Part shown: piece by piece, positions 25,689 to 56,835 of the stretch | Position numbering within the stretch: position 1 is the stretch's first letter | How the letters are laid out: each line of letters starts with the position of its first letter | Assembly: GCA_964035575.1 (NCBI GenBank) | Contig: OZ037837.1 | Location: 1,736,001 to 1,800,000, forward strand | Length of the DNA: 64,000 nucleotides | DNA from: Rhynchopus sp. YZ270_cl-10 | Lineage: Eukaryota | Direction: 5' to 3' | Translations under genes and position numbers: made by a program | The notes under the pieces: model-generated | The model's input: the letters and a program-made list of their open reading frames with translations, nothing else | The model's database searches: none | What the model was told of the DNA's origin: nothing

Positions 25689-25704
25689 TCATTTAAAAAA
25701 AAAA

Positions 25705-27783: not shown

Positions 27784-27891
27784 AAAAAAAAATCTTATAA
27801 AATACCAAAATTTTAATTAGTGAAATACCAATAAGCATGGATGTTAGCTTTAGGGGGGGGTCTTTCGCGGACGCTGCCATTTTAGTTTTTT

Positions 27892-33800: not shown

Positions 33801-34192
33801 GTCTGTCCCACAACCAGTGTCTGCGAGCAGTGAAGCGATTTTATACCGCTTACACGAATGCGTCAGGGTGCCAAATTAATCGCGCACTGCGTATCCCTGA
33901 CCATGTTGTCACGTCAGTGTATCCGCCTTTCTAAGTTTTTTACCCCAACCCCAACCCCACCACCACCCCCCCCGTATACCGAATGTAAAATCATCAAAGA
34001 ACATATGACCCCCCTCCCCCCGTCATTTTTTCACTTTCAGCAGGAGAAAAAGCCTCCCTTTCGTATTTCTGGCTTGTCCTCGGGGAAAGCTCGGGAGAGG
34101 TTTTTTTTTGTTTTTTTTTTTGTGTTTTTTGGGCGGGACGGGGGTTGGAAGGGGGTGCATAATTAATTTTCGGGGGAGGTCCGCGGGCTCTG
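30879..34192 (+). mobile_element. Autonomous hAT transposon
   Basis: TIR CAGAG(T/C)CCGCGGA; flanked by G-runs consistent with a G8 TSD; encodes a transposase. Confidence 0.9.
31209..33934 (+). CDS. hAT transposase (ZNF862-like), 891 aa; exons 31209-32975 and 33026-33934
   Basis: 50-nt GTATGG..CACAG intron restores the frame (..STLQ|DRSL..); TTF-type finger, MCDESKD, LDGTASM, CTCH, IRW, PVSNAECERVIS. Confidence 0.9.
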
Positions 34193-35094
34193 GGGGGGGG
34201 GTTAGGGGCGGTCATATGTATGTGAGAAAGTGACATTTTTCAAAATGTTGTCAAAAGCGATTCTAAGGTAAAAAAAAGTAGAAAATCCACCCCACAGGCC
34301 CAAAAAAATGTGGTGTGCCCCGTTTTCCACCCTTTTTGTGCCTCTCAGGGGCCCAAATCACAGTTTTTTAAAAACTGTCCCCTTATGGTACCTGAGTGCC
34401 CCCCTGGTTTGCCCCTTCAGGTTGACTATGGACAGAAAACACCCCAATATGGCCCAGAACATAGAGCAAAGGGTATATTTCACCCCCAAAACCCCACAGG
34501 AGACCCACAAAACCGTAACTGGGGTGTTTCGTGACTCCTGTTGGTGCTCAAACCTCATAAAACCTGAAACACCGGTCAGACAGTGAAAATAGGCCAAAAC
34601 AGGCCAAAATAGCCTGAAAATGGCCTAAAATGGCCAAAAAACACCCAAAAAAGCCATATTTTCCCTCAAAAACACCCGGAAAGTCGCAGAAACCCGATTC
34701 CAGGGTGGTTCTGGGCACCTGTGGGGGCTCATACCCCATAGAATGTCAAAAATATGGTGTAAATGTGGTTTTTTTTTTTTTTTTTTTAATCTGTATTCTG
34801 TAACCTCTCTCTATTTTACGGCAGGTGTGACCGGTTGAGGTGATACTTCCGGACTGAGGAAGGGCATTCTTTTACTTTTTTTTTCTGTGTGTTTGTTTTC
34901 TTGTTGTAGTCTTTTTTGGTGAAGGGGCTTGGCCGACGACACTGAGAACCTCTTTGGTTCATAGCTGTTAACGACGTCTGGTCCTACCTAGCTGTACACT
35001 CTAATTCTAAAAATAAAATAAAATAAAACCAATAGGCAAAGGGGGAGGGGGGAGGCTAAAAGCCAAACAAAAGTAAAGAATGAAAAAGAAAAAC

Positions 35095-38000
35095 TCAAGT
35101 GTTCTGGGACGGCCGCGAGTTCCTGCTCCGCTTTAGGCCCCGCAGACGGTTGTAGAGGGTGTAAGCCTCTTCCACCTCGTCGGAGCTCATCGACGGCTTC
35201 TTCGCTTCTTTCCACAGGTAGAGGCAGGTGAGGGCGTCATCCACCGACTGCCAATCCCCTCCCGCTGCCAGCGACTGGTGCTGAAGCGTGTTCGGGTAGA
35301 ACGTGTCCTTCCACGCCTCGGCGGTCGCTGGACACCCCATGTTGTTGAATCCTGGGCAGGGCGCCATACCGGCATAGAACGGCACGTTGGTCGGGAGGGC
35401 TGTAGGTGCGGGTTGAGAGCCACTCTCCGATTGCGTGTACGTGCTGGGGGCCGAAGTGGCGTCAGACATGGGGACTGCGAGTTCTGATTCGTCGATGAGG
35501 TCCATAGAGAACTCGCTGCCCTGCGATGCGGCGGGCGGCTGCTCTCTCGGGTGGACGGAAGAGGGAACTGCCTCAGAGGAAGAAGATACGGGGAGGGCTG
35601 AGTGGGTGTTTGAGAAGCCACTCTCCGTACCGGTCTGAGGTTGTGTTGCCCCGTCCGAACCAGGGTGTGTCTGCGCAGAGGCGCCGGGACGGGCAACTGC
35701 TTGTGCGACAGGGGGCACCGAGGACGCGACCGGAGTAGGGAGGGCTGAATGTGTGGTGGAGTAGCCGCTCTCTTGTCCCTGGACGTCTGATGATGCCTGT
35801 CTCATGTTGCGTTGCGTCTGTGCCCTCCGCGCCTTTGCAGTCTCCACTTGGCTGGTCACGCGAGCTTCACGCTGTACCTTCACCAAGTTAATGCTCTTGG
35901 GGTCAATCATCTCGTGCGCGCGCGCAATGATCCTCGCCGCGCATGGCTTGCTGGACACTGGCAGGGCCCGCGGGCAGGTTGAGGGGAGGGAACGACACGG
36001 CACACACACCCAAACTGAGCACTCCCGACACTCCCAATGACGTTCACGACCGAGGACCGCAGCCGAGCACAGCTCGCATTTCCCGAAATCCGCCCGTGAG
36101 TCTTCCAGGGGGCAGTCCAGAAGCCCCTCGCGTGACACACAAGTGAGAGGCGGCAGGCGCGGGGTCGGTTCATGCATGAGGAGGAACTGCGTCAGCTTCT
36201 CGGGGATATTGACCGGCGTGAAGTGACCTGCGGTGCGGCCATCGTGGGCTAGTGCGAGCACCTGACGGTATCCCACTTCGCCTGAGGGGGTGAAGACCGA
36301 CGGTCGATGGCCACCAATGAACACCACCACCAGGGAATGCAGAGCTCGGGCCAGGCCGCTAACCGTCACCATGTCAGCCCAAGTGTCAGGACGCGCACAC
36401 CCAGCGATGCTCATCTGTCGCGCCCATACTCCGACACTTGGTTCAGCGCGAGCCGCTAAGTCCTCGTCTTGGACCACCTGTGCAATCGCCGCCTGTCTCA
36501 GGGACCCCGCACTCCTCCCGCACTGGTACGCCACGGCATCGAAGCAACAGTCGCCCACTGTGTAGCGGAAGTCCGCGGGAACGGAGCACCCGAGGGAGGA
36601 CAGCTGTAGCGGCAGGGCCGGCGGGGGGTCACATGTCTCCAGCGCCTTGAATGCTGTTGCAGGGTCTTCGCAGGGAGTGGAGGGTACTTCAAGGGTGGAC
36701 GGATGGGTGGATTCCTTGCCCGCTTGTCGGCTCAGCCATGCCTCCATCGCTGCCGTGGCTTCGTCGACGTCATAAAGGGGATCAGGGGCGACGGGAGCGA
36801 CAGGTTCCTCTTCAACTTCACAGTCGTTCTCAGACAAGCGGTACAGATGGTCATCCACGTACGAAGGGAAACGGTCATCGGGAGGGTCTGGCGAGACGTA
36901 GTAGCTTTTGTCGAGGGACACTGCTTTCGCTGGCACTGCTGTGCGCGTGACCGCAAGGCTGAAGCACAGGGCGCCTCTCTTCAGCAATGTGGCGCCCACC
37001 TCCCGCTGGACACACACGGCCAGACGTTCGTTCCACTTGACCGATGCCAGAACTTTATCCCCGTCCGCTCGCTCCGCAGCCATCTTGTTCAGATGGCGCC
37101 ACAGCGTGTCTGCCTCCGGACCTAGCCCCCCAAGGACCTCGGCTGCAAAGGCTGTGAAGGAAATATGAGCTTTCCTGCAGGCTTCGCCGTGCTTGCCCCG
37201 TTTCGCCGTCTGATGTGTGACCGCGGCGTGTCCCACCGCCCGGGCCGCCCCTTGGACATGCGACTTGGCGAGGGGATTCGCTACCACGCAGTCCACCGCT
37301 CGAGGCTTGCCATCACCGACTCCGATGGAGAAGAAGATGTCTGCCGGTTTGGTCCCTCCGAGGACGATGTGCTTAGGCTCCAGGGACGGAGCGAGGCCCG
37401 CCTTCGAACCCAGCATGCCCACCAGATCGCGTAGCCGGTCATGCCTGCGAATCGTGCAACCCCCATGGCTGCAGTTGAGGGCGTGTATCCCGAACTCATC
37501 CATGGGCCGACCACATTGTTCGCATAGTGCCTTGTCCCTGTGTACCGCAAGACCCAGTCTGAGACGGACCACTGCTCGAAACTCTTCCGGGTTGATGACG
37601 TTTTCTGGGGTGGGTAATGCGGTAATCCACGCCCCCGCCAAGGGCAGCTGAAGGGAATTCAGCCGAGCACGGTCCTGGATGTCCCCTGTGTCGCGCAACT
37701 CAGACACTTGACGTGTGATGATCGGGGCAGACAGATCACGCTGTTTGAGGATTTGCTGGGGCTGTTCCTCTGGGTTCACGCGGGCATCGGCGTCCACAAG
37801 CTCATTGTACCGGGTGGCAGTGTGGCTCCACCCTCCAGCATCCCAACGGTAGTGTTTGTCCAGGTGCTTGCATAAATCGAAGGTGCCACTAGCAGCTCCC
37901 ATAGCGGCAGCGGTCCAGTGGTCGTATGCACGGCGCACCCCCAAGCCCCCTATACGCACGGGGAGGGCAGCTTGCACTCGAGCCGCATCCGGCATCAATG

Positions 38001-41000
38001 CGTCCGGGTCCGACCCTGGCGAACTCAGAATCTGTGCCAGCACCCGGTCCACCTCCTTGTCGTACTTGTCCAGCCACTTGTGATCCCCTTGGTGACGAAG
38101 GGCCCGCATGTAGAAGACAGTTTTGCAAAATCCTTCACAGTGGCGCAAGAGAGACAGAGCCACCTGAGCATCTCCCAGTTTACCCAGCAGGCGGAGTTTC
38201 TTCGAGAATTCAAGCATCGTGCTCTCCATGAACTCGTCGCAGTACTCGTTAGTGCCGATGGGGGCCCCCAGAAAGCTGAATCCCTCTCGGAGCACCTTCA
38301 GGTCCGCCACGGCAAATCCTGCATCCTGGAGGACGGCATCAGTGTGGTTCTTCTCACCTCCGAGGGGGATGAGTTCGCATTTGCAGGAATTCACCGATAG
38401 CCCCAACTTCAGGCTCTCCGACTTTAGTACCTCAAAGGCTTTCGCAACTGCCGCAGGCGATCCCATGAGCGTCCCGTCATCCAGGTACCAAACCGACAGA
38501 TCCACCCCCGGCAGGTCGCGAACCGTTTCCGTCAAGCCCTTCACCACCAGAGAGAAGAGAAGGGGGCCTAGCGGGTCACCTTGCTGCACACCGGACTGCG
38601 ATTGCACCACTACTTCACCGTACACCAGGGAGGACGGATACACGTAGCACCACTCCACAAAACGGGACAGCTTAGGGAGGTGTGCGCGCGTCTGATTCAG
38701 CAAGGTGTTGCGGCACACAGTGTTGAACGCATTGCTGAAGTCAATCTTCAGCACTACTTTGTCCTGGCCGATGTGACGGAAAGCGAAGTCCCGGACTGTC
38801 TCTGTCGCTGCCTCGATGCCACCTTCCACCCCTACCCCCACCTGCTTACCAGGGAGCAGAATGTCCTTCGCTTGCTTCTTCACATCAGCTGCATACGATT
38901 TCGCTGCCAGCCTACGGAGAGTTTCACCCACTGCGATCGGACGGACATCGTTGGCACCTTTGGGGAGCGCCATCAAACGGGCCCCAGCCAGGAAAGGAGT
39001 GACTTCGTCGGGGACTCTGGCTGCGCGGACTGCGTTGAGCACGTGAGTCAAGGCCGGTAGGATGTTGACGTCACTCTCATTCAGCATCTGCTTGAGGTGG
39101 TCCGCACGGAGGCCGGAAGGACCTGCAGCAGTGCCTCGCGGCATGCGTTTCACCAGTGCCAGCACCTGCGCAGGGGTCAAGTCATCTGGGGTGGCGGGCT
39201 TCACCAAAGCCGGGCCTAACTCCACTTTGGATGGGGGCGGAGGGTGCTTGGCCCGCAGAGCTTGCAGTGTGGCTTCAGAGTCCGGGGCGAGTCCCGACGA
39301 AGAGAGACGGGAGAAGGCTGCGGCGGGACGACCCTTCCGAGCTTCAGCGACGCACGCCCGTTCCAGATCCTCAAATATGGGGGCCTCTTGCTCTGCTCGT
39401 CTCCCCGGCACCTGAGCCTGCGCGTCCCGCCACAGTGCGGATAACTCGCCTTTCTCCCACCGCTCCAAGTCTTCGATGCGCTTCTCTCGCATGCGCTTCT
39501 TCTTCGTCTTGCCACTTCGGCGAGTGCGGAGGAGCGTTTTCCACAGCATGCCGAACCGGTTCCACGCGGACAGGTCCTTAGCGTTGGCTGCGATGTCCAA
39601 GAGTGCTATGTTCACCGCCTCCGTCACTGCACGAAGCATGTAGTCCGGGATGAACTCCATGACACGGGAGCGGCTTACGGCGATGTCATGCGCAGACGGA
39701 AGAAGGCGATCGTCGTCTACTTCCTGCTGGGACCTCTTTCGGATGGGCGGAACAGCGGATGGTGCGGTCGCCCCCCTGCACGAGAAGCATGTCCCATCCT
39801 TGGCCTTTATGGGGAGGACGTCCCCGCACCGCACGCACTGCGTGAACTTCAGGCGGCGGAGGTCGGCTGCAGGCAGGATGTCGCCTTGCTGGGCGTGCTC
39901 CTGCAAGTGATCCCGCAGCTTGCGGTGCTTAAACTCCGCGCTCCTGTGGATCTTGGAGCCCGAGCAGTGAGGCAGGGGGCAGTAATAACCCTGCGCTGGG
40001 GGGTCGAGGGAGCAAGAGGCGGTGGAATCTGCAGTGATCGCTGCCAACGGATGCGCGGCAATGGTGTCGGGGTTGAGCAGGGAGTAGGGAGCCCCTGCTG
40101 TGAGCAACTCGATAGCGTCGTTGTCGGCGTACACCGCGTCGAAGTGATTGCCCACCCGAGTGATGACCCTCGTCCTCGCGACTTCTTTTGTGGACAGCCG
40201 CGTTGCCCGGATGCGCACCACAGGGTTCTCACCACACTGCACCACGAGGATGTTCTCCCGCCACACGTTCGCCGCAAGGTGGATGGCGAAGTGGTCTCCC
40301 CAGGCGTCACCTCTGAGCCCTGCGACGTACGCATCCAACTGCTTCTGCCCACCCAACATCACTTCACCCTGTGCACGGGTCTCAACGGCTCTGTCGGCAA
40401 ACAGCTCACGAAGCTCAGTACACTCAGCAGCCGTAGGGGGCGGCCTGTTCCTGGTCTGAGCCTGGAACAGCGAGACAAAGAGGCAATTGTCCGACTCGGA
40501 GTTAGGGACGCGGACTGCGGCTCCTTGGGAAATGGAGCTCAGGAAAGCGTCAACCCTCTCTCGTTCAGCATCCACCTGGGCATCCTGTTCGTTCCCACCT
40601 CTCATGGCACCTGGGCCCGCCCAGACGTGACGGCACCGCCCTACTCTGTCTCTGCCAACATGACGCATGCGGAACAGCGCTCTGCTGCGGCGACGGGAGC
40701 CTGCCAGTGGAGGGTTGTCTTGCGGGCAATGCCCCCACGCGACGCAACGACGGACCCCAGACAGGGAGCACCGACACATCAGACGGAGACCCTGACACCA
40801 GGGGTTCCGAGCAATCCATCTGCGGCGACGGCGACGGCGACGTCGGCAGGGCTCCTTCCACGAGAGGGTGTCGGCAAGGAGGGCACGGAGCAACGCCGCG
40901 ACGTGGCAGACCATCAAGGCCCACACAACACCAGGCCCTACGACCCCACACCCACTGACGGAACCAGGAACATCCCGCGCCCCCCAGCTCCCAACCTGAC

Positions 41001-41169
41001 CAACCGACGCCTCCGCACCTCGCCTTCGCACACACACGCGCCTGAAGATGTTGCTGCTGTAGCCGTTGCTGCTGCTGTTGTTGCTGTTGTTGCTGTTGCT
41101 GCTGCTGTTGTTGCCGTAGCTGCTGTTGCTGCTGCAGTTGCTGTTGTTGCTGTTGTTGCTGTTGTTCAC
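35095..41169 (-). CDS. CRE-like polyprotein: OTU-like, C2H2/C4 fingers, RT, CCHC + restriction-like endonuclease, second OTU-like, Cys-rich finger (first ATG at 40914)
   Basis: RPIAVGE, KIDFSNAFN, GVQQGDPLGP, WYLDD; CxxC..H...C, RHD, KPAD..D; DNCLF..WGD..NHF and GDCCF..WAD..GHF. Confidence 0.92.
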   Translation of the reverse strand: MNNSNNSNNSNCSSNSSYGNNSSSNSNNSNNSSSNGYSSNIFRRVCVRRRGAEASVGQVGSWGARDVPGSVSGCGVVGPGVVWALMVCHVAALLRALLADTLSWKEPCRRRRRRRRRWIARNPWCQGLRLMCRCSLSGVRRCVAWGHCPQDNPPLAGSRRRSRALFRMRHVGRDRVGRCRHVWAGPGAMRGGNEQDAQVDAERERVDAFLSSISQGAAVRVPNSESDNCLFVSLFQAQTRNRPPPTAAECTELRELFADRAVETRAQGEVMLGGQKQLDAYVAGLRGDAWGDHFAIHLAANVWRENILVVQCGENPVVRIRATRLSTKEVARTRVITRVGNHFDAVYADNDAIELLTAGAPYSLLNPDTIAAHPLAAITADSTASCSLDPPAQGYYCPLPHCSGSKIHRSAEFKHRKLRDHLQEHAQQGDILPAADLRRLKFTQCVRCGDVLPIKAKDGTCFSCRGATAPSAVPPIRKRSQQEVDDDRLLPSAHDIAVSRSRVMEFIPDYMLRAVTEAVNIALLDIAANAKDLSAWNRFGMLWKTLLRTRRSGKTKKKRMREKRIEDLERWEKGELSALWRDAQAQVPGRRAEQEAPIFEDLERACVAEARKGRPAAAFSRLSSSGLAPDSEATLQALRAKHPPPPSKVELGPALVKPATPDDLTPAQVLALVKRMPRGTAAGPSGLRADHLKQMLNESDVNILPALTHVLNAVRAARVPDEVTPFLAGARLMALPKGANDVRPIAVGETLRRLAAKSYAADVKKQAKDILLPGKQVGVGVEGGIEAATETVRDFAFRHIGQDKVVLKIDFSNAFNTVCRNTLLNQTRAHLPKLSRFVEWCYVYPSSLVYGEVVVQSQSGVQQGDPLGPLLFSLVVKGLTETVRDLPGVDLSVWYLDDGTLMGSPAAVAKAFEVLKSESLKLGLSVNSCKCELIPLGGEKNHTDAVLQDAGFAVADLKVLREGFSFLGAPIGTNEYCDEFMESTMLEFSKKLRLLGKLGDAQVALSLLRHCEGFCKTVFYMRALRHQGDHKWLDKYDKEVDRVLAQILSSPGSDPDALMPDAARVQAALPVRIGGLGVRRAYDHWTAAAMGAASGTFDLCKHLDKHYRWDAGGWSHTATRYNELVDADARVNPEEQPQQILKQRDLSAPIITRQVSELRDTGDIQDRARLNSLQLPLAGAWITALPTPENVINPEEFRAVVRLRLGLAVHRDKALCEQCGRPMDEFGIHALNCSHGGCTIRRHDRLRDLVGMLGSKAGLAPSLEPKHIVLGGTKPADIFFSIGVGDGKPRAVDCVVANPLAKSHVQGAARAVGHAAVTHQTAKRGKHGEACRKAHISFTAFAAEVLGGLGPEADTLWRHLNKMAAERADGDKVLASVKWNERLAVCVQREVGATLLKRGALCFSLAVTRTAVPAKAVSLDKSYYVSPDPPDDRFPSYVDDHLYRLSENDCEVEEEPVAPVAPDPLYDVDEATAAMEAWLSRQAGKESTHPSTLEVPSTPCEDPATAFKALETCDPPPALPLQLSSLGCSVPADFRYTVGDCCFDAVAYQCGRSAGSLRQAAIAQVVQDEDLAARAEPSVGVWARQMSIAGCARPDTWADMVTVSGLARALHSLVVVFIGGHRPSVFTPSGEVGYRQVLALAHDGRTAGHFTPVNIPEKLTQFLLMHEPTPRLPPLTCVSREGLLDCPLEDSRADFGKCELCSAAVLGRERHWECRECSVWVCVPCRSLPSTCPRALPVSSKPCAARIIARAHEMIDPKSINLVKVQREARVTSQVETAKARRAQTQRNMRQASSDVQGQESGYSTTHSALPTPVASSVPPVAQAVARPGASAQTHPGSDGATQPQTGTESGFSNTHSALPVSSSSEAVPSSVHPREQPPAASQGSEFSMDLIDESELAVPMSDATSAPSTYTQSESGSQPAPTALPTNVPFYAGMAPCPGFNNMGCPATAEAWKDTFYPNTLQHQSLAAGGDWQSVDDALTCLYLWKEAKKPSMSSDEVEEAYTLYNRLRGLKRSRNSRPSQNT
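41051..41166. repeat. (GCT/GTT)n compound trinucleotide microsatellite
   Basis: Direct inspection. Confidence 0.85.
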
Positions 41170-42029
41170 TTGTCCCCTTTGCCCTCCTCCCCTGAAGAAG
41201 AAGTGGGGAGGCGCAGGTCAGGCTGAGGACCTTTCCGCTGCTAGCCGTCCTACACCCTTTTTACACATACCTGGGGTGTTTCCGACCAGCAGCCCCTCGG
41301 TCTCCTGGTTGTGTCCTTTTCAGACACGCCCTTCCACCGAGAGCACAGCTCACTACCACCCGTTGGCTTCTTCCGTATCACAGAAACTTCCGAAGTCCGC
41401 GGGGTGTGTAACTCACTGTGGCCCGACTGTACATTGAGCCCTCTGCTTGAGAGGACCGGCTGGTGACCCAGTCTGTAGCGATCCCATGCGTCCCAGTTTG
41501 TGGTTTCACGCACTGGTGGGACACAGCCAGCTCGCGCTGACCACTCCAGTCGCCCGGAGGTGGAACCGACGGTCTGAACCGCATGAATCTGCCGACCCAA
41601 TGCGATCTTTGACCGTTAGCCAGCCGATTACTCGACCTGACCTCTGCTCGGCAAGTTGGTCACGCCTGTCTGCAGGGGAGTGACTCCCCACAAGTATGCA
41701 TCCGACACAACTCCCTAACAGATTCACCAGCCTAGCCTGTTCACATCCCAACCGTCGCGGTTATGTCACCACTCACTAGTGTCGGAGTCTGTTAGTTTTT
41801 TTTGAAACCCAGCCATTTTAGCCTACAGGGGTACCATAAGGGGGCAATTTTTAAAAAACTGTGATTTGGGCCCCTGAGAGGCACAAAAAGGGTGGAAAAC
41901 GGGGCACACCACATTTTTTTGGGCCTGTGGGGTGGATTTTCTACTTTTTTTTACCTTAGAATCGCTTTTGACAACATTTTGAAAAATGTCATTTTCTCAC
42001 ACTTTTAATACAGGATATGACCGCCCCTA

Positions 42030-42872
42030 GGCATACTGTGCAGGCGAGCCGTTTTTAGGCGAGTTTTTCGTTTTCCTGATTTTCAGGAAAAACTCGCCAA
42101 AAACTCGCCCTACTCGCCCATTACTCGCCTATTACTCGCCAAAACTCGCCAAAAACTCGCCAAAACTCGCCTAAACTCGCCAAAAACTCGCCTAAACTCG
42201 CCTAAACTCGCCCACATTTGGGTGCAAATCCTGGTGCACATACGCACCTTGGGGGTGAAAATGTGCACCAGGATGTGAAAATGGAGGGCGGGGGTGACTG
42301 ATGACAACATGCCACTCGAAAACACACAAAAAAATTGAAATTGTGTCACTTGTACGTCTAAAGGCAACCATGTCACGGCAGTGGCTGACAGGCATGTATG
42401 TAAACATTTGCTCCAGGGGAAGATCCAAGCGTGCCATAGATCCCGGGGGACAAGACGTGCTACAATCCGGAGGATGACGAAGACATGAGCCGGGGCTACA
42501 CTCGCTATACAACAATGTCCTCGCCATGCCGGTAAATGGCAACCCTGCAGGCCACCCCTTGGCGGTATTCCACCACGACTACATCGCACCCATCTGTGCA
42601 AACTTCATGGATCCGCAGAAGCTACAGCTGGACTGGTGGTACTGGTTGTGGAAGCCTACAAAGCAAACTGTAGAGGTCTTGTTCAAGTGGAACGAAAAAA
42701 TTTTTCTCTTCAAAACTCAAATTTCCCTCATATTTTCGTGTGTACACTTTTCCCAAGGTAAAATCCCTACCAAAAAAAAAACTCGCCAAAACTCGCCCCC
42801 CAAAAATGGGCGAGTTTTAGGCGAGTTTTTGGCGAGTAGGCGAGTTTTTTTTACTCGCCCGCACAGTATGCC
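42030..42872. mobile_element. Non-autonomous GGCATAC-terminus element B
   Basis: TIR GGCATACTGTGC(A/G)GGCGAG; TA on both sides; subterminal AAACTCGCC repeats. Confidence 0.85.
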
Positions 42873-42913
42873 TAGGGGGGGGGTAAAGGAGGGGGTAAGG
42901 GGGGGGGGGGGGG

Positions 42914-44106
42914 TAGGGGGTACGACTCCAGCCATTTTTTGCGCACGGAAAATTCATTTGGCATTATCTGGTCATCTCCAAGGCAACTGCGGGTGAAAAA
43001 CACCCTCAGAGTGGGTCACAGGGGGCCTGTGGGTCGAAAAACGACCCAGAAGCCACCCCAGAATACAAAAAAATGGAAAAAAATAGTGAAAAAACGGCTT
43101 TTTTCACGTTTTGGCCACTTTGGGCAAAATAGCGATTTTTCGAGAAAAAAATCAAAAACCGGGATATTTTTTGACATCACAAAGCCTCCTTTGGCACAAA
43201 TATACCCCAAAAGTGGCCTGTGAGTCCATTCCAACCTGTTTTGGACATATTTGACACTTTTGGAAGTGTTTTTTTGGTGTTTTTAGGTCAAAAAAATGCC
43301 CAAGACGTCCCCAAGACATCCCCAAGACACTTTGCACACCCCCTGTTACGGTCATATTTTTTTCGTTTTTTTTGCCTGAAACCCCCAAAATACCCCTCCC
43401 GGACCCCACATAGTCCCGAATATCCATCACACACCCACTCAGAGTGAGTAGAAGCACCCCAAAAAAAATATTTTTTAAAGCCCTTCAACTTCAACATGGA
43501 TGCTGCCGAAACTGAAGCACAATTTTAGGGCTTTAAAAAATATTTTTTTTGGGGTGCTTCTACTCACTCTGAGTGGGTGTGTGATGGATATTCGGGACTA
43601 TGTGGGGTCCGGGAGGGGTATTTTGGGGGTTTCAGGCAAAAAAACGAAAAAAATATGACCGTAACAGGGGGTGTGCAAAGTGTCTTGGGGATGTCTTGGG
43701 GACGTCTTGGGCATTTTTTTGACCTAAAAACACCAAAAAAACACTTCCAAAAGTGTCAAATATGTCCAAAACAGGTTGGAATGGACTCACAGGCCACTTT
43801 TGGGGTATATTTGTGCCAAAGGAGGCTTTGTGATGTCAAAAAATATCCCGGTTTTTGATTTTTTTCTCGAAAAATCGCTATTTTGCCCAAAGTGGCCAAA
43901 ACGTGAAAAAAGCCGTTTTTTCACTATTTTTTTCCATTTTTTTGTATTCTGGGGTGGCTTCTGGGTCGTTTTTCGACCCACAGGCCCCCTGTGACCCACT
44001 CTGAGGGTGTTTTTCACCCGCAGTTGCCTTGGAGATGGCCAGATAATGCCAAATGAATTTTCCGTGCGTTTGGTCCCAGCCAAAATGGCTGGAGTCGTAT
44101 CCCCTA
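42914..44106. mobile_element. hAT-type foldback element C
   Basis: ~570-bp arms starting TAGGGG(G/A)TACGACTCCAGCC, ~40-nt spacer at ~43485-43526. Confidence 0.88.
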
Positions 44107-47100
44107 GGCATACCTAGAAAGCGAATATGATATTCGGCCTATATTCGGATCCGAATATGCGTATTCGCCCTATATTCGGATCCGAATATAGGCGAATATA
44201 GGCCGAATATGACCCGAATACACGTATCACCAACAGGAATGTATCATATTTTTGAAATAGACCCCACCACGTTCCGCAATTGGCTCGGAAAATCCAAAAA
44301 TGGGGGGGAAGGGGAAAAAAAGAGAAAAAAAAGTCCAAAAAAAAAGAAGAAAGAAAGTCACTTTTGTATTTCGAAGCCCCGCGGGCTTTCCATGAATTTT
44401 CGCCGAAAATTATCGCGTTTAGGTTTGCACAATATATGACGTGCTTCGGTGAATTCTTTTCGGTGCACCCCTACACTATCAACAGGAATTTATCAGTTTA
44501 AACGCTAAAAAAAATATCATCAATGGGCCCAAAAAGCAGAAAGAGGAAGGTCGACGAGACGACCATTGTCTCGAGCAACACGGACGCGAGCGATTCCTCT
44601 TCCACCAGGGCACAAACAAAGAAAAGAGTGAAAAAATCAGCGAAGAAGGCAACGAATAAGCCTTCTACAAAGACTGCAAGCAAGCCACCAGCCAAGAAAG
44701 GCGGCGCGATAGAGAAGACCCCGGCGGAGAAGCGCAAAGAGACCATAGAGTCTCGGAAGAAGCTGAAGGAGGTGTCGGCGGAGGCGAAGGCGGGATCGTC
44801 GGTAACCGCGCAGGGTCGTTTAACCGCGCTGGAGAAGTACGACCGATCAATTGCAGAGTGTTATGAAGTATGTATCGCTAAAAATGTATTAAAAAACCGG
44901 TCAGTATAGAACAAAATGAGGGGCCACACTGCTACGGCGGCGCTAAAGTGACTAGGGTGAATACAAAGTAATAAAAAATAAAAAAAATGTAACAAATAAC
45001 AAAAAAATCTCAGGTAATGGAGGTTGATGAGCTCCCCTTCGAGGAAAAGGCAGCAGCGAAGAAAACAGGGCGAAAGGGAGACGACACAGTTCTTTTTTGT
45101 GTACATTGCCGTGGAGTGGTGCAACACGGTGAAAGTAGTACCGCCAAGGTACACGTCCAAAGCGACCGCCACAAAAATAATGAGCGTAGGGAGAAGAAGA
45201 AGAAGAAGAAGGCTGCAGCTCCAGTTGGTGACACGAAGGAGAAGCGGCAGCAGGTGTTGACGCCGGTGATGGGGTTGGCGGCGTTTGTCACAACATGGGC
45301 ATTGGCTGTGCTGGTCTGCGGACTCACAGAACGCCAAGCCGACATTATGTCGCTGCCAGTGCGTCCCCTCTTCGGAGAGGACTTCCCAACCGGGAAAACG
45401 GTCCTGGGCCGCTCCACGAAGTTCGTGAAGGAGATCGAGGGTGTGCTACTGAAGTTGGTTGAAGGGAAACCAATCCCTCTCGGGATAGATGGATCGGGTA
45501 TGCTAATAAACAAATGACCACTATCCCAAAATTTTTATTGCAGGACAGAGACATCTGGGTTTTTCGACATTGTGCATTGTAGCGTTCGTTGCAGGCCAAG
45601 CCCTCCTCATTCATATGGACGTAAAAGATACTGGAGAAGTCCACTGTGGTCGAGATGTGAAGGATGCTATCAACACAGCTCGAAAAAAATTTAATATCGC
45701 GCATTCTCCCGTGGTTGCTGATTATGGATCGATAAATGTGGTAGGGTTGTCTGACGAGGAAGCCAGTTGGTGTTTTGGCCACGTGACAAATTCGGCACTG
45801 AAAGCACACGTAAAAATTAACTACCAGCTGTCATATGTTTTTTGTACAGCGTTTAGTCAGCTTTTCTCTTGTAAAAGCCGACGAGTGCGCTGGCTCAATT
45901 TCCAGGAATCTTCTGTCAGCAACGCGCGTGAGTCGGCGGCGGACACACAAGACACCAGGATTCGTTTGAAAGTCGCTGTGGAGAAAAAAAGTGTCAGGGG
46001 CATGCAACGTTTGCTTCCGGGGCCGAAAATAGATGATATTGAAGAGCTTCTGGCCAAAGCAAAGGAGGTGTTGAGCGAAACGATCGATGTTGACGTTGAG
46101 AATGTTGATACGGCATCGCCGAAGACACCATCACTCACCAGCGACACCCGGTGGTTAGCCATGGCCGACCTTGCTATACACATTAGAGACAGACATCAAC
46201 CCCTGGTATCTTTCCTCGATAGTGAAATGGGGAGAAAGAAAAAGAACCAGTCTCTCCTCTCCCTCGTTGAACTTGTCAAAACGGACAGGTGGCAGGATCA
46301 TGTACGCGAAGTGTCGGCATTTGCAAACGATATCGAACCTCTTCTTCCATTCCTCAGAAAGGTGCAAAATCCCGGCACCAAAATTGCAGCGAGCTGGTGG
46401 TTTCCAGAGATTCAGAGGGTACTCACCAACAGCGACTACTCTGCGAATATGCGCGAGTGTTTATCAGCAGCATGGGCCGAGTACAAGTCGAGAGACCGGT
46501 TTGAGAAGTTAATATTCTTTGACTGCAATGTCATCCTCTCCGGGGACTATGATGATGATGACCTGCCGACAGGGGAGCCACAGTGTCAGGACGCAGAGAT
46601 GCAGAAATGGGGTGCTATTTTCTATGCTTTGCGCGAACCGACCGTGTGGAACGAATTCATCCTGTACCTCAACGCCGAAGCCCTTTTGTTTCAGGATGTT
46701 ACTGACCTGTTCGAGTTCTGGAGTCCAAGAGGCAGTGGAGGGTTACGCTTCCCGAATTTAGCGCCACACGTCCATGGATGGCTTTCAACCCCGATCAGCG
46801 TAACCTCAGTTGATGGATTATTTTCTTCCTTAAGTGCAATGAAAAATAAACGCTCCTCGAATTTATCTAAGGAAAAGTTTATTGAGAAGCTGATGCTGCG
46901 GAAGAACGGCAAGCTCCTTGGATTGCTTCAGGACAAGAAGGGGCTCCTCGGCGAGGCGGTGGAGCAGTCGGAATCGTCAGATTCCGACTGTGAGCCTCTC
47001 GCCGAGGAGCTCGAGATGATACCAGTGTTCTAAATGCTGGTATCATCTCGAGCTGCTTTTTCATGAGCAAACAAAAAAAAAAAACAAAAAAAAACCCCTC

Positions 47101-47568
47101 TTTGTTTGCACTACTCCTACTACTACTTCAATCTTAAGTCCACACCCACGTGGCGGACGCTTTGGCATGCGTCTGTAAGGACAGCCTTGATACTTTCTGT
47201 ATTGCCTCTTTTCCATCAACAGTGCTTTTTGTGCTTTCAACTTCTCTTGTTTTTGCAAAGACACCGATCATCAAAAGACCCCCACACCCACCCCCCAATA
47301 CACGCGTTTCGCTACCTCATGTCCCCACCCACCCCCATCCAAACTCACTCACACCCTTTCTGCAGTCTAGATTCTGTGTATTCGGATCCGAATATAGGGC
47401 GAATATGATATTCGGCCTATATTCGGATCCGAATATAGGCCGAATATGCATATTCGGCCTATATTCGGATCCGAATACGATATTCGGATCCGAATATAGG
47501 CCGAATATGGCCCAAGAATTTTGGATCCGAATATAGGCCGAATATCATATTCGCTTTCTAGGTATGCC
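44107..47568 (+). mobile_element. Putatively autonomous GGCATAC-terminus transposon D
   Basis: TIR GGCATACCTAGAAAGCGAATATGATATTCGGCCTATATTCGGATCC; TA on both sides; palindromic TATTCGGATCCGAATA subterminal repeats; transposase gene. Confidence 0.9.
44523..47033 (+). CDS. hAT-like (CGGBP1-type) transposase, 772 aa; exons 44523-44867, 45014-45497, 45544-47033
   Basis: Two GTATG..CAG introns join three ORFs in frame (2319 nt); LFCxxC..H.....H finger, IDGS, ADYGS, CFGH, DTRW, FW..RFPNL..PISVTSVDGLFS. Confidence 0.85.
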
Positions 47569-47591
47569 TAGGGGGGGGGGGGGGGGGGGGG

Positions 47592-48781
47592 TAGGGGGTC
47601 CGACTCCCTAGTAAAATTTTGTCCGGTTTTTAATTTTTTCAACATTAGGCCATTTCCCGGGCACCCCCGGGTGAATCCTGCCCCCAAAATAGGGTTTCTG
47701 GGCCCTGTGGGGCTAAATTCACCCTCTAGGTACCCCAAAATATGAAAAAAATTGAAAAATATGGTGAAAAATCGGGTTTTTGGCCTTTTGGGCACTATGG
47801 CCAGTTTTGACTAAATTTCCAAAAAAAAATCAAAAAAAGCCCCAAAAATAGACGAAAAAAGGAGTCTCTGGCCACAATTTCGGCCCAAAAATGTGTTTTG
47901 AGTCCATTGCAAACGGTTTTTCGCCTTTTTGCCACTTTTTTTGACGATTTTTTGGTGTTTTTAGGTGCAAAAACAACCCCAGAACAACCCCAGAACAACC
48001 CCAGAACACTTTTTCACCACATTCTGGATCAATATCTAGTCGAACTTTTTGCTGAAAACCGCCGAAAAACCACCCCTGTAAGTCAGATTATACCGAATGG
48101 TGCTCCAATTCCCACAATAACACCCAAATCTACGTCAGAAAATAGGGGGAAAAAAACACACTTTTTTCAAAAAGGTCGTCAGGCAGGTTCCATAATGAGC
48201 TTTTTGAAAAAAGTGTGTTTTTTTCCCCCTATTTTCTGACGTAGATTTGGGTGTTATTGTGGGAATTGGAGCACCATTCGGTATAATCTGACTTACAGGG
48301 GTGGTTTTTCGGCGGTTTTCAGCAAAAAGTTCGACTAGATATTGATCCAGAATGTGGTGAAAAAGTGTTCTGGGGTTGTTCTGGGGTTGTTTTTGCACCT
48401 AAAAACACCAAAAAATCGTCAAAAAAAGTGGCAAAAAGGCGAAAAACCGTTTGCAATGGACTCAAAACACATTTTTGGGCCGAAATTGTGGCCAGAGACT
48501 CCTTTTTTCGTCTATTTTTGGGGCTTTTTTTGATTTTTTTTTGGAAATTTAGTCAAAACTGGCCATAGTGCCCAAAAGGCCAAAAACCCGATTTTTTACC
48601 ATATTTTTCAATTTTTTTCATATTTTGGGGTACCTAGAGGGTGAATTTAGCCCCACAGGGCCCAGAAACCCTATTTTGGGGGCAGGATTCACCCGGGGGT
48701 GCCCGGGAAATGGCCTAATGTTGAAAAAAATAAAAACCGGACAAAATTCCTTAAGGAATTCCTTAAGAGTCGGACCCCCTA
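47592..48781. mobile_element. hAT-type foldback element E
   Basis: ~580-bp arms starting TAGGGGGTCCGACTC, 25-nt loop at 48175-48199; related to 56034-56835. Confidence 0.88.
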
Positions 48782-51700
48782 GGCATACCTAGAAAGCGAA
48801 TATGATATTCGGCCTATATTCGGATCCAAAATTCTTGGGCCATATTCGGCCTATATTCGGATCCGAATATCGTATTCGGATCCGAATATAGGCCGAATAT
48901 GCATATTCGGCCTATATTCGGATCCGAATATAGGCCGAATATCATATTCGCCCTATATTCGGATCCGAATACACAGAATCTAGACTGCAGAAAGGGTGTG
49001 AGTGAGTTTGGATGGGGGTGGGTGGGGACATGAGGTAGCGAAACGCGTGTATTGGGGGGTGGGTGTGGGGGTCTTTTGATGATCGGTGTCTTTGCAAAAA
49101 CAAGAGAAGTTGAAAGCACAAAAAGCACTGTTGATGGAAAAGAGGCAATACAGAAAGTATCAAGGCTGTCCTTACAGACGCATGCCAAAGCGTCCGCCAC
49201 GTGGGTGTGGACTTAAGATTGAAGTAGTAGTAGGAGTAGTGCAAACAAAGAGGGGTTTTTTTTTGTTTTTTTTTTTTTGTTTGCTCATGAAAAAGCAGCT
49301 CGAGATGATACCAGCATTTAGAACACTGGTATCATCTCGAGCTCCTCGGCGAGAGGCTCACAGTCGGAATCTGACGATTCCGACTGCTCCACCGCCTCGC
49401 CGAGGAGCCCCTTCTTGTCCTGAAGCAATCCAAGGAGCTTGCCGTTCTTCCGCAGCATCAGCTTCTCAATAAACTTTTCCTTAGATAAATTCGAGGAGCG
49501 TTTATTTTTCATTGCACTTAAGGAAGAAAATAATCCATCAACTGAGGTTACGCTGATCGGGGTTGAAAGCCATCCATGGACGTGTGGCGCTAAATTCGGG
49601 AAGCGTAACCCTCCACTGCCTCTTGGACTCCAGAACTCGAACAGGTCAGTAACATCCTGAAACAAAAGGGCTTCGGCGTTGAGGTACAGGATGAATTCGT
49701 TCCACACGGTCGGTTCGCGCAAAGCATAGAAAATAGCACCCCATTTCTGCATCTCTGCGTCCTGACACTGTGGCTCCCCTGTCGGCAGGTCATCATCATC
49801 ATAGTCCCCGGAGAGGATGACATTGCAGTCAAAGAATATTAACTTCTCAAACCGGTCTCTCGACTTGTACTCGGCCCATGCTGCTGATAAACACTCGCGC
49901 ATATTCGCAGAGTAGTCGCTGTTGGTGAGTACCCTCTGAATCTCTGGAAACCACCAGCTCGCTGCAATTTTGGTGCCGGGATTTTGCACCTTTCTGAGGA
50001 ATGGAAGAAGAGGTTCGATATCGTTTGCAAATGCCGACACTTCGCGTACATGATCCTGCCACCTGTCCGTTTTGACAAGTTCAACGAGGGAGAGGAGAGA
50101 CTGGTTCTTTTTCTTTCTCCCCATTTCACTATCGAGGAAAGATACCAGGGGTTGATGTCTGTCTCTAATGTGTATAGCAAGGTCGGCCATGGCTAACCAC
50201 CGGGTGTCGCTGGTGAGTGATGGTGTCTTCGGCGATGCCGTATCAACATTCTCAACGTCAACATCGATCGTTTCGCTCAACACCTCCTTTGCTTTGGCCA
50301 GAAGCTCTTCAATATCATCTATTTTCGGCCCCGGAAGCAAACGTTGCATGCCCCTGACACTTTTTTTCTCCACAGCGACTTTCAAACGAATCCTGGTGTC
50401 TTGTGTGTCCGCCGCCGACTCACGCGCGTTGCTGACAGAAGATTCCTGGAAATTGAGCCAGCGCACTCGTCGGCTTTTACAAGAGAAAAGCTGACTAAAC
50501 GCTGTACAAAAAACATATGACAGCTGGTAGTTAATTTTTACGTGTGCTTTCAGTGCCGAATTTGTCACGTGGCCAAAACACCAACTGGCTTCCTCGTCAG
50601 ACAACCCTACCACATTTATCGATCCATAATCAGCAACCACGGGAGAATGCGCGATATTAAATTTTTTTCGAGCTGTGTTGATAGCATCCTTCACATCTCG
50701 ACCACAGTGGACTTCTCCAGTATCTTTTACGTCCATATGAATGAGGAGGGCTTGGCCTGCAACGAACGCTACAATGCACAATGTCGAAAAACCCAGGTGT
50801 CTCTGTCCTGCAATAAAAATTTTGGGATAGTGGTCATTTGTTTATTAGCATACCCGATCCATCTATCCCGAGAGGGATTGGTTTCCCTTCAACCAACTTC
50901 AGTAGCACACCCTCGATCTCCTTCACGAACTTCGTGGAGCGGCCCAGGACCGTTTTCCCGGTTGGGAAGTCCTCTCCGAAGAGGGGACGCACTGGCAGCG
51001 ACATAATGTCGGCTTGGCGTTCTGTGAGTCCGCAGACCAGCACAGCCAATGCCCATGTTGTGACAAACGCCGCCAACCCCATCACCGGCGTCAACACCTG
51101 CTGCCGCTTCTCCTTCGTGTCACCAACTGGAGCTGCAGCCTTCTTCTTCTTCTTCTTCTCCCTACGCTCATTATTTTTGTGGCGGTCGCTTTGGACGTGT
51201 ACCTTGGCGGTACTACTTTCACCGTGTTGCACCACTCCACGGCAATGTACACAAAAAAGAACTGTGTCGTCTCCCTTTCGCCCTGTTTTCTTCGCTGCTG
51301 CCTTTTCCTCGAAGGGGAGCTCATCAACCTCCATTACCTGAGATTTTTTTGTTATTTGTTACATTTTTTTTATTTTTTATTACTTTGTATTCACCCTAGT
51401 CACTTTAGCGCCGCCGTAGCAGTGTGGCCCCTCATTTTGTTCTATACTGACCGGTTTTTTAATACATTTTTAGCGATACATACTTCATAACACTCTGCAA
51501 TTGATCGGTCGTACTTCTCCAGCGCGGTTAAACGACCCTGCGCGGTTACCGACGATCCCGCCTTCGCCTCCGCCGACACCTCCTTCAGCTTCTTCCGAGA
51601 CTCTATGGTCTCTTTGCGCTTCTCCGCCGGGGTCTTCTCTATCGCGCCGCCTTTCTTGGCTGGTGGCTTGCTTGCAGTCTTTGTAGAAGGCTTATTCGTT

Positions 51701-52244
51701 GCCTTCTTCGCTGATTTTTTCACTCTTTTCTTTGTTTGTGCCCTGGTGGAAGAGGAATCGCTCGCGTCCGTGTTGCTCGAGACAATGGTCGTCTCGTCGA
51801 CCTTCCTCTTTCTGCTTTTTGGGCCCATTGATGATATTTTTTTTAGCGTTTAAACTGATAAATTCCTGTTGATAGTGTAGGGGTGCACCGAAAAGAATTC
51901 ACCGAAGCACGTCATATATTGTGCAAACCTAAACGCGATAATTTTCGGCGAAAATTCATGGAAAGCCCGCGGGGCTTCGAAATACAAAAGTGACTTTCTT
52001 TCTTCTTTTTTTTTGGACTTTTTTTTCTCTTTTTTTCCCCTTCCCCCCCATTTTTGGATTTTCCGAGCCAATTGCGGAACGTGGTGGGGTCTATTTCAAA
52101 AATATGATACATTCCTGTTGGTGATACGTGTATTCGGGTCATATTCGGCCTATATTCGCCTATATTCGGATCCGAATATAGGGCGAATACGCATATTCGG
52201 ATCCGAATATAGGCCGAATATCATATTCGCTTTCTAGGTATGCC
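48782..52244 (-). mobile_element. Second, inverted, near-identical copy (F) of the GGCATAC transposon
   Basis: Same TIRs, TA on both sides; reverse complement of 44107-47568. Confidence 0.9.
49318..51828 (-). CDS. hAT-like (CGGBP1-type) transposase, copy 2; introns 51338-51483 and 50808-50853
   Basis: ORF translations identical to copy 1; one synonymous His codon difference noticed (CAT/CAC). Confidence 0.85.
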
Positions 52245-52266
52245 TAGGGGGGGGGGGGGGGGGTAT

Positions 52267-55200: not shown

Positions 55201-55312
55201 CTGTATGTTGACAGGTGGTACCTGTCAAAATGACAGGTACCACCTGTCAAAAATTTTCACCTGTCATTTTACTAGTAAAATCACCTGTCATGGTCATAAC
55301 TAGTCCGTCGTG
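52267..55312. mobile_element. CACTA/CMC-like non-autonomous element G with cargo
   Basis: TIR CACGACGGACTAGTTATG(G/A)CCATGACAGGTGAT; ATGACAGGTG subterminal repeats; flanks TAT / TAA (3-bp TSD, one mismatch); coding remnant at ~53000-53300. Confidence 0.8.
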
Positions 55313-56033: not shown

Positions 56034-56835
56034 TAGGGGGTCCGACTCCCTAGTAAAATTTTGTCCGGTTTTTAATTTTTTCAACATTAGGCCATTTCCC
56101 GGGCACCCCCGGGTGAATCCTGCCCCCAAAATAGGGTTTCTGGGCCCTGTGGGGCTAAATTCACCCTCTAGGTACCCCAAAATATGAAAAAAATTGAAAA
56201 ATATGGTGAAAAATAGGCTATTTTGGCCTTTTGGGCAACATAGCCGATTTTGACCAAATTTCCAAAAAATCAAAAAAAAGCCCAAAAAATAGACGAAAAA
56301 AGGCGTGTCTGGACACAATTTCGACCCAAAAATGTGTTTTGAGTCAATTGAAAACAGGGTTTCACCCTTTTGACAATTTTTTTGACGTTTTTTTGTGTTT
56401 TTAGGTGAAAAAACGCATGAGGTGGACCGGGGTTGGACCGGGGTTGGACCGGGGACAAGAAAAACACAAACAAGGCGTCGCAAAATTGTCTAAAGTGTGA
56501 AAAACCGGTTGTAATTGACTCAAGCCACGTATTTCCGTCGAAATTGTGTCCAGAGACGCCCTTTTTCGTCTATTTTTTGGGCTTTTTTTGATTTTTTTTT
56601 GGAGACACCATTTTTAGTCAAAAACCGGCCATTTTGCCTAAGGCTAAAATAGCCTATTTTCACCATATTTTTCAATTTTTTTCATATTTTGGGGTACCTA
56701 GAGGGTGAATTTAGCCCCACAGGGCCCAGAAACCCTATTTTGGGGGCAGGATTCACCCGGGGGTGCCCGGGAAATGGCCTAATGGTGAAAAAATTAAAAA
56801 CCGGACAAAATTTTACTAGGGAGTCGGACCCCCTA
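56034..56835. mobile_element. hAT-type foldback element H
   Basis: TIR TAGGGGGTCCGACTCCCTAG (~285-bp arms); 8-bp TSD AAGGGGGG at 56026-56033 and 56836-56843. Confidence 0.9.

What the first reader, a model, noticed from the sequence alone, without database searches (positions are those of the whole stretch)
42024..52250. hAT-like transposon family that inserts exactly at the terminal TA of other hAT elements, duplicating only TA
Seen: all three GGCATAC...GTATGCC elements (42030-42872, 44107-47568, 48782-52244) lie in the context CCCC-TA|element|TA-GGGG. Each time the left CCCCTA is the right terminus of a different TAGGG-ended element (A, C, E). The fourth related element (H, 56034-56835) ends CCCCCTA-AAGGG, lacks the CCCCTAGGGG palindrome and has no such insertion. 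Established: hAT transposases usually make 8-bp TSDs (variants about 5-8 bp), not 2 bp. Inference: a target-specific hAT-derived lineage that uses CCCCTAGGGG, a site created when TAGGG-ended hATs land in G-runs. The host TIR stays intact, so this would be a safe-haven or hitch-hiking strategy; host plus rider is again bounded by TAGG...CCTA and G-runs and might move as one unit.
Basis: partly seen in the sequence, partly recalled or inferred. Interest (0 to 1): 0.87.

Follow-up and report, generated by a model that had tools for sequence, protein, structure and literature searches.

The report
CCTAGG-targeting hAT transposon with DDD triad
A young, multi-copy hAT-type jumping gene, with an aspartate where hAT enzymes have their third catalytic glutamate, sits in the palindrome CCTAGG and likely duplicates all six bases rather than just TA, and it lands at other transposons' ends likely because those ends happen to create its target.

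Summary
The junctions are as described: three elements sit in CCCCTA|GG…CC|TAGGGG at the ends of three TAGGG-ended elements. "Duplicating only TA" is not shown. The target is a palindrome, so 2-bp (TA), 4-bp (CTAG) and 6-bp (CCTAGG) duplications fit equally; 8 bp is excluded. The 6-bp reading gives hAT-like 5'-CA/TA ends, and 6-bp-TSD hATs are known (hAT6), so I favour it (about 0.65–0.7). The 772-aa protein is a hAT transposase (Hermes E 6e-9; a homolog's fold Z 24). All 11 aligned rows that reach the last catalytic motif have D at Hermes E572 and lack the next R. The only named homologs are from diplonemids. In contigs of four public runs, all 58 displayed flank ends align through at least CTAGG next to CATAC; 17 lack CCCTA and 37 lack CCCCTA. 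Many copies are therefore not at such ends, though some host-end junctions recur. Hitch-hiking is unsupported. Verdict: a real, sequence-specific, short-TSD DDD variant of hAT, not a hAT-end-riding, TA-duplicating new class.

The parts
44109..47566 (+). Autonomous rider D (preferred ends CATAC..GTATG; 44107-47568 under the TA reading); 44-bp perfect TIR, ATATTCG/CGAATAT subterminal repeats at both ends
44523..44867 (+). Transposase exon 1 (K/A-rich N-terminus); predicted GT-AG intron of 146 nt follows
   Evidence: tblastn of P0007 matches 44724-44870, weakly, E 0.009
45014..45497 (+). Transposase exon 2: BED-like C2H2 finger and first catalytic D (D274); predicted GT-AG intron of 46 nt follows
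45544..47033 (+). Transposase exon 3: D336, CxxH (C353/H356), R479-W480, D700 in place of Hermes E572, hAT C-terminal region
48784..52242 (-). Autonomous rider F; differs from D by 1 substitution and 1 single-base indel; transposase gene about 51828 to 49318
42032..42870 (+). Non-autonomous rider B (839 bp); shares only the terminal CATAC..GTATG with D, has ACTCGCC subterminal repeats, no significant internal similarity to D
42026..42031 (.). CCTAGG left of B (right copy 42871-42876): putative 6-bp TSD
44103..44108 (.). CCTAGG left of D (right copy 47567-47572): putative 6-bp TSD
48778..48783 (.). CCTAGG left of F (right copy 52243-52248): putative 6-bp TSD
34203..42029 (.). Host A, TAGGGG..CCCCTA, about 190-bp TIR, interrupted by a non-LTR retrotransposon (ORF 35095-40914); flanked by G9T on both sides once B is removed
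42914..44106 (.). Host C, near-fully palindromic non-autonomous element in a G-run
47592..48781 (.). Host E, near-fully palindromic non-autonomous element in a G-run
56034..56835 (.). H, relative of E with exact 8-bp TSD AAGGGGGG; its end forms CCTAAA, not CCTAGG, and has no rider (internal control)
30879..34192 (+). Canonical autonomous hAT (CAGAG..CTCTG, G-run flanks, last motif NAECERVIS) in the same nest; a comparison, not part of the family

Best explanation
B, D and F are members of a recently amplified hAT lineage, so far named only from diplonemids, whose transposase has D-D-D in place of D-D-E; they sit in the palindrome CCTAGG, likely cut it with a 6-bp stagger so that the true ends are 5'-CATAC/TATAC and the duplication is CCTAGG, and likely land at TAGGG-element ends as a by-product of sequence. 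Steps: (1, shown) D and F carry an intact three-exon hAT ORF, TIRs and subterminal repeats. (2, inferred from Hermes) the BED-like finger binds the subterminal repeats and the enzyme excises by cut-and-paste. (3, shown as a pattern, mechanism inferred) the target is read as CCTAGG, best in a C-rich/G-rich context. (4, inferred) a 6-bp stagger duplicates CCTAGG and so regenerates the target on both sides, allowing head-to-tail riders, whose junctions are seen in contigs. (5, shown for this window) a TAGGG..CCCTA element landing in a G-run creates CCCCTAGGGG at one end only, which explains why only right ends carry riders and why H does not. (6, inferred) the host end stays intact and could leave without the rider.
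For: Boundary test: TSD 2, 4 or 6 fit, 8 does not. Under the 6-bp reading the ends are CATAC..GTATG, and a related mini-element ends GTATA directly before CCTAGG|CATAC in 3 of 4 runs (table 5c; X4 record 11, 87-nt period). So the base that varies (C/T) is the terminal one and both forms start YA, like the hAT motif YARNG (PMC3014272) and the widespread CA..TG ends (PMC2577343). hAT5, hAT6 and hAT7 are described (PMC12730594). The TA reading needs the element's GG..CC ends to equal the target's own flanking bases by coincidence (inference). All 58 displayed diverse-flank ends align through at least CTAGG and 50 through CCTAGG; no displayed row starts at 44105-44109. 37 of 58 lack CCCCTA and 17 lack CCCTA. 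Empty C-type ends followed by G-runs exist (2 contigs each in X1 and X6). Protein: family profile vs Hermes E 6.3e-9, collinear; model of homolog P0024 vs Hermes Z 24.1, rmsd 4.9 over 386 residues, next hit Z 11.2; D at the E position in 11 of 11 rows reaching it, 9 distinct families. Recent amplification: D and F differ at 2 sites; exon-3 cluster has 6 members on 17 contigs; an identical 772-aa homolog on 9 D. papillatum contigs.
Against: No junction with a non-palindromic target was seen at both ends, so the TSD length is not measured. 8 of 58 displayed ends vary at the outer C (xCTAGG|CATAC; X4 1, X5 4, X6 3), yet no partner row with a changed inner G is displayed, as a 6-bp TSD would predict. 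This is weak, because 15 rows are hidden and the aligner probably absorbs such a mismatch. The ends fit only the YA of YARNG (CATAC, not CARNG). P-element ends do complement their target (PMC2577343), so the 'coincidence' has a precedent. In this window 3 of 3 CCCCTAGGGG sites but 0 of 3 other CCTAGG sites are occupied (P = 0.05). A C-end/rider junction contig has about 5 times the depth of the flank contigs in X1 (486 vs 75-102; depth is a rough guide), so host ends are recurrently used. Contigs under-count ends in multi-copy hosts. The four runs represent at most 3 studies and probably show the same loci repeatedly.
Confidence: 0.62

Rival explanations
1. Same hAT lineage and target, but the stagger is 2 bp (TA; ends GGCATAC, the first reader's view) or 4 bp (CTAG; ends GCATAC), and the element's terminal G's restore the target as P-element ends do.
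For: Equally compatible with all three junctions. Variation is displayed at the outer target base but not at the inner G's. The catalytic motif is unusual (E to D, R lost), so altered target geometry is conceivable. Target-restoring ends are described for P (PMC2577343).
Against: It gives G-starting ends unlike other hATs and unlike the TAG/CAG ends of the other elements in this nest. The C/T variation falls at the would-be terminal base of the 6-bp reading. hAT TSDs in the papers seen are 5-8 bp. The search for TA/2-bp/CTAG-TSD hATs listed 6 papers; only PMC12730594 was opened (its TA-TSD lineages are PHISTA and ESTA, not hAT), and the other five titles do not point to one.
Confidence: 0.22
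2. Besides reading CCTAGG, the rider is actively drawn to host termini (bound host transposase, longer C4TAG4 context or chromatin), which would be a true safe-haven strategy.
For: 3 of 3 CCCCTAGGGG sites vs 0 of 3 other CCTAGG sites occupied. The C-end/rider junction is at several-fold depth in X1. 21 of 58 displayed ends have CCCCTAGG or more.
Against: At least 16 of 58 displayed ends are neither a CCCTA host end nor a C-run. The free CCTAGG sites lie in or just upstream of ORFs (8669, 19215, 57081), where selection would remove insertions. H, a close relative of E with a different flank, has no rider. A longer target consensus alone explains the preference.
Confidence: 0.12
3. Host plus rider move as one composite, or D-E-F is one inverted duplication or assembly artefact, so the three cases are not independent.
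For: 44101-52250 is a 98.8% palindrome. The composite is bounded by TAGG..CCTA. The recurrent C-end/rider junction would also fit composite copying or segmental duplication.
Against: D meets its host with its 5' end and F with its 3' end, and their flanks differ beyond CCCCTA/TAGGGG. B is a different sub-family. The composite end matches the host TIR for only 4 nt, whereas Hermes needs subterminal repeats (PMC10368747). The family is multi-copy in an assembly and in runs of 3 studies.
Confidence: 0.04

Closest known systems
Hermes (hAT superfamily; PDB 8EDG, 4D1Q)
   Same: BED-like finger, D..D..CxxH..RW..last acidic residue in the same order, same fold; TIR plus subterminal repeats
   Different: Hermes has E572-R573, an 8-bp TSD and a weak nTnnnnAn preference (PMC10368747). 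Here D with no R, TSD of 6 bp or less, and a near-strict CCTAGG target; about 15% identity for homolog P0024.
hAT6 (also hAT5, hAT7)
   Same: hAT elements with a non-8-bp TSD; hAT6 makes 6 bp (PMC12730594, passages read)
   Different: hAT5/hAT6 fall inside a Blackjack/animal lineage per that paper. Relationship to this lineage was not tested (no hAT6 sequence at hand), and their target specificity and triad were not seen.
Charlie-related hATs of Anolis (hAT-HT1N1_AC, hAT-HT2N1_AC)
   Same: CTAG-centred palindromic targets: NTCTAGAN, NHCTAGRN (PMC3014272 Table 1)
   Different: 8-bp TSD and CAG ends; the target here is C/G-flanked and stricter.
IS4321/IS5075 (IS1111 family)
   Same: Works like: a mobile element found in the terminal repeat of another transposon (title of Partridge and Hall 2003 in the reference list of PMC11187229; paper itself not read)
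   Different: Bacterial DEDD enzyme with RNA-guided target choice. Here a hAT transposase, no guide RNA sought, and many insertions away from host ends.
P element and Tc3 end/target ambiguity
   Same: Ends that complement a palindromic target regenerate the site and blur TIR versus TSD; resolved for Tc3 by changing the target (PMC2577343)
   Different: Different superfamilies; P has only a soft 14-bp motif.
Dada (target-specific DNA transposons)
   Same: Target-specific eukaryotic DNA transposon (PMC3706591, listing and abstract start only)
   Different: Dada targets small-RNA genes. This protein's best structural match is Hermes; it was not compared with Dada.

Membership tests
hAT superfamily | Hermes-like transposase with RNase H core and helical insertion | tested here: met
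   Profile vs Hermes E 6.3e-9; Foldseek E 1.9e-9; VIA Z 24.1, rmsd 4.9, 386 aligned. The model is of homolog P0024; the window's exon 3 folded alone gave pLDDT 37.5.
hAT superfamily | C-terminal PF05699 region | tested here: met
   9 of 15 alignment members match at E<=0.1, best 3.8e-8. The window protein alone scores E 0.007, below the curated cut-off.
hAT superfamily | CxxH and RW motifs | tested here: met
   CFGH at 353, TRW at 478; conserved in homologs
hAT superfamily | DDE triad with terminal E (E572 in Hermes; its catalytic role is recalled) | tested here: not met
   D at this column in 11 of 11 rows that reach it (4 of 15 do not); gap-free alignment to Hermes and to the window's canonical hAT. 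An acidic residue is kept, so this marks a variant.
hAT superfamily | 8-bp TSD (canonical) | tested here: not met
   Longest possible direct repeat is 6 bp in all three elements
hAT superfamily | Termini YARNG | tested here: inconclusive
   YA is met under the 6-bp reading (CATAC, TATAC) but RNG is not; nothing is met under the 2- or 4-bp readings
hAT superfamily | N-terminal BED finger and subterminal repeats | tested here: inconclusive
   C2H2 motif aligns with the Hermes N-terminus; zf-BED E 0.084 in 1 of 15; repeats present; binding untested
hAT6 | 6-bp TSD | tested here: inconclusive
   Fits but cannot be told from 2 or 4 bp
hAT6 | Placement in the Blackjack/animal hAT lineage | not testable with these tools
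   No Repbase sequences available; the 17 representatives found are unnamed or diplonemid (10 of them looked up)
TA-duplicating superfamilies (Tc1/mariner, PHISTA, ESTA) | Transposase of that superfamily | tested here: not met
   Mos1 Z 7.8, Sleeping Beauty Z 7.0, Transib Z 7.9, RAG1 Z 6.6 against Hermes Z 24.1. No PHISTA or ESTA structure is listed, so those two rest on the positive hAT match.
CGGBP-type hAT domestication | Truncated BED plus Hermes DNA-binding domain protein without a mobile element | tested here: not met
   Full-length transposase inside TIRs and multi-copy. No CGGBP phylogeny was built; PMC8097297 seen as abstract start only.

The most novel reading that the evidence does not exclude
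A diplonemid hAT lineage that has changed both its active site (DDD, loss of the conserved arginine) and its integration geometry, cutting CCTAGG with only a 2- or 4-bp stagger and restoring the site with its own GG ends. It would be a hAT with a piggyBac- or mariner-like short stagger and restriction-enzyme-like target specificity that exploits other hATs' ends as renewable landing sites.
Probability: 0.2. Interest if true: 0.8.

Novelty: new variant of a known kind. Interest (0 to 1): 0.5.

Why it matters
hAT transposases generally make 8-bp duplications, choose targets loosely and use a DDE triad. An apparently active lineage with a DDD triad, a duplication of 6 bp or less and a near-strict hexamer target is a natural experiment on what sets stagger length and target choice in the hAT fold. 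It can be tested directly by swapping D and E here and in Hermes. A transposase that reads CCTAGG could also be a semi-site-specific integration tool. The case also warns that TSD calls at palindromic targets are ambiguous.

Tried and rejected
No whole genome is held, so no genome-wide flank logo could be built. JGI metagenomes gave nothing by TIR pattern or protein, nor viral contigs or prokaryote genomes. Alignments were too divergent for the search for related loci. Word-based homolog searches added nothing beyond the family itself (each scored only about 8000 candidates). Folding exon 3 alone failed (pLDDT 37.5), and the single-sequence PDB search found nothing relevant. The ESM atlas did not answer. 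Three look-ups for Hermes structure papers found nothing, so no role for R573 is claimed; the one hit was not opened. Earlier scan findings: none. Rejected: a blunt TAGGCATAC..GTATGCCTA element, because the empty site would then lack the host's terminal TA; an 8-bp TSD; a TA-only target, because flanks would diverge right at the TA; B as a deletion derivative of D (best blastn E 0.36). The head-to-tail junction could come from excised circles rather than tandem copies; contigs cannot tell. Supplements of PMC12730594 (hAT tree, termini figures) were not opened and could bear on the hAT6 comparison.
Full report
Setting. The window is eukaryotic and 23-57 kb is a dense nest of mobile elements. 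No genome is held. Of the 17 representatives found for the transposase, 10 were looked up. The 3 with names are Diplonema papillatum (two) and Flectonema neradi; 7 are unnamed ENA or Logan records. I infer a diplonemid host at the level of the group only.

Observation. With the riders removed in silico, they occupied all 3 CCCCTAGGGG sites among 6 CCTAGG, 78 CTAG and 1997 TA sites. The chance is 8e-10 for a TA target but 0.05 for a CCTAGG target. D and F differ at two sites, yet meet their hosts with opposite ends and have different flanks. B is another sub-family sharing only the terminal five bases. These look like three separate insertions.

The boundary problem. Every junction reads CC-CCTAGG-CATAC...GTATG-CCTAGG-GG. 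Shifting both boundaries by 0, 1 or 2 nt gives a TSD of TA, CTAG or CCTAGG with the same empty site; 8 bp is impossible. This ambiguity is known and was resolved for Tc3 only by changing the target (PMC2577343, passages read). I prefer 6 bp for four reasons. It gives 5'-CA..TG-3' ends. A related mini-element ends in GTATA directly before CCTAGG-CATAC in runs X4, X5 and X6, so the varying base is the terminal one and both forms begin YA (table 5c; record 11, period 87 nt = 6 + 81). It needs no coincidence between element ends and target. And hAT5, hAT6 and hAT7 exist (PMC12730594, passages read). Against it: the ends do not fit the rest of YARNG; P-element ends do complement their target; and 8 displayed ends vary at the outer C with no displayed partner varying at the inner G. 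That last point is weak because 15 rows are hidden and the aligner probably extends through such a mismatch. The TSD length is therefore inferred, not measured.

Other copies. The exon-3 protein cluster has 6 members on 17 contigs. Six runs of 3 studies hold 86-93% of D's words; 4 were laid. On a 60-bp stretch over D's left junction, the displayed rows with loose sequence before the element sum to 58 contig ends (X1 16, X4 4, X5 22, X6 16). The same loci probably recur across runs, and 15 of 38 rows are hidden. The match begins at 44100-44101 in 21, at 44102 (CCCTAGG) in 20, at 44103 (CCTAGG) in 9 and at 44104 (CTAGG) in 8; none is displayed at 44105-44109. Agreement among pooled flanks is 0.48-0.61, and median loose length in rows 44102-44104 is 173-255 nt (one tandem-rider row aside). 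So the family reads (C)CTAGG, not TA, and at least 16 of 58 displayed ends are neither a CCCTA host end nor a C-run. Contigs under-count ends in multi-copy hosts. A C-end/rider junction has depth 486 against 75-102 for most listed flank contigs in X1, so host ends are used repeatedly; depth is only a rough guide. Empty C-type ends followed by G-runs also exist (X1, X6). Head-to-tail junctions GTATG-CCTAGG-CATAC occur (X4), as expected if insertion regenerates the target.

Why hAT ends. A TAGGG..CCCTA element in a G-run makes CCCCTAGGGG at one end only; the other end reads GGGG-TAGGG. This predicts riders only at the CCCTA-GG end and none at H, as seen. The hosts' hAT nature is inferred from YARNG-type ends and H's exact 8-bp TSD; no transposase for them was identified, and their arms are long for hATs. 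The rider lies outside the host, whose end is intact. The composite end matches the host TIR for four bases only, while Hermes needs subterminal repeats (PMC10368747, passages read). Hitch-hiking is unsupported; a mild safe-haven effect cannot be excluded.

The protein. Three predicted exons with GT-AG introns (146 and 46 nt) give 772 aa, and homolog P0007 matches all three blocks, the first weakly. No RNA was examined. A 15-row family profile finds Hermes (E 6.3e-9) collinearly from the zinc finger to the C-terminus. An AlphaFold model of the D. papillatum homolog P0024 (pLDDT 68.7) matches Hermes at Foldseek E 1.9e-9 and Z 24.1, next hit Z 11.2. The motifs are D274, D336, C353/H356, R479-W480 and D700. 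D700-G701 aligns without gaps to Hermes E572-R573 (numbering counted; the catalytic role of E572 is recalled) and to E-R of the window's canonical hAT (weak overall match). All 11 rows reaching this motif have D and none has the following R; three rows are one D. papillatum family, leaving 9 distinct sequences. Near-identical intact copies here and an identical protein on 9 D. papillatum contigs suggest the DDD enzyme is active (inference). A link between this change and the short stagger is a hypothesis only.

What is known. A search for hAT transposase + DDD + catalytic triad + hAT superfamily found 0 papers. Searches on diplonemid hATs, on targeting of another transposon's TIR and on TA- or CTAG-TSD hATs listed nothing that describes this lineage by title or abstract start (only top listings seen). 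The D. papillatum genome paper names TATE, MULE and Helitron and has 0 matches for 'hAT' in its main text (PMC10161547, passages). Repbase Reports and subscription journals are not searched, so a prior entry is possible. CTAG-centred hAT targets are known from Anolis (PMC3014272). PMC8721813 (part 1 of 4 read) describes low target specificity in some hATs. PMC5499845 and PMC3942097 (passages) give 8 bp as the usual hAT TSD. PMC2266710 (passages) and the EDTA v2 preprint (one passage) added little.

Verdict. A real feature and a new variant of a known kind: a sequence-specific, short-TSD, DDD hAT lineage. The headline claims, a TA-only duplication and riding on hAT ends, are respectively less likely than a 6-bp duplication and contradicted as a rule. 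Interest 0.5, rising to about 0.8 if the stagger proves to be 2 or 4 bp (probability about 0.2).

Noticed in passing
window 30779-30813 and 56841-56875: A 35-bp perfect inverted repeat brackets the whole 26-kb nest, and G-run motifs (GGGGGGTAAAGG, GGGGGGTAAAATAAGG) recur inside. An outer element may supply the G-run landing pads for several families; no clear TSD.
   Followed up: partly
window 30879-34192: Canonical autonomous hAT (PF05699 E 1.2e-5; DUF4371 weak) with CAGAG..CTCTG ends between G-runs, in two overlapping ORFs that probably need an intron; a second G-run-associated hAT.
   Followed up: partly
window 35095-40914 (-): 1939-aa non-LTR retrotransposon ORF (RT E 4e-14, weak OTU-protease match E 0.019) inserted inside host A.
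   Followed up: no
window 963-7299 (-): Non-LTR retrotransposon with ORF1, APE-RT and RNase H; RT and RNase H lie in separate ORFs (frameshift or assembly error).
   Followed up: no
window 52264-55313: Element with CACGACGGACTAG inverted ends and ACAGGT subterminal repeats (CMC/EnSpm-like ends by recollection), inserted in the G-run after F.
   Followed up: no
window 24343-30081: A second nest of non-autonomous TIR elements (24343/27879, 24441/25288, 25705/27783, 27892/30081). Three of the nest's elements, including the one at 52264, carry the same captured ~1.2-kb or shorter segment (26037-27276, 28585-29769, part at 54209-54434), near GGGTACCT tandem arrays (27265-27506, 55156-55197).
   Followed up: no
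window 34193-34202 and 42875-42884: Host A is flanked by G9T on both sides once B is removed: either a 10-bp duplication or an 8-bp one with G-run slippage.
   Followed up: partly
table 5c, run X4 record 11: An 81-bp mini-rider (CATAC..GTATA) joined head-to-tail through CCTAGG; tandem array or circle junction.
   Followed up: partly
window 45554: D has T where F and the contigs of all four runs have C (synonymous); a private change or assembly error.
   Followed up: yes
window 8100-9407, 19278-21732, 59426-61090: Repeated genes with a ubiquitin-like N-terminus and 25-aa leucine-rich repeats (by eye); also an ankyrin-repeat-like ORF at 57105-58487.
   Followed up: no
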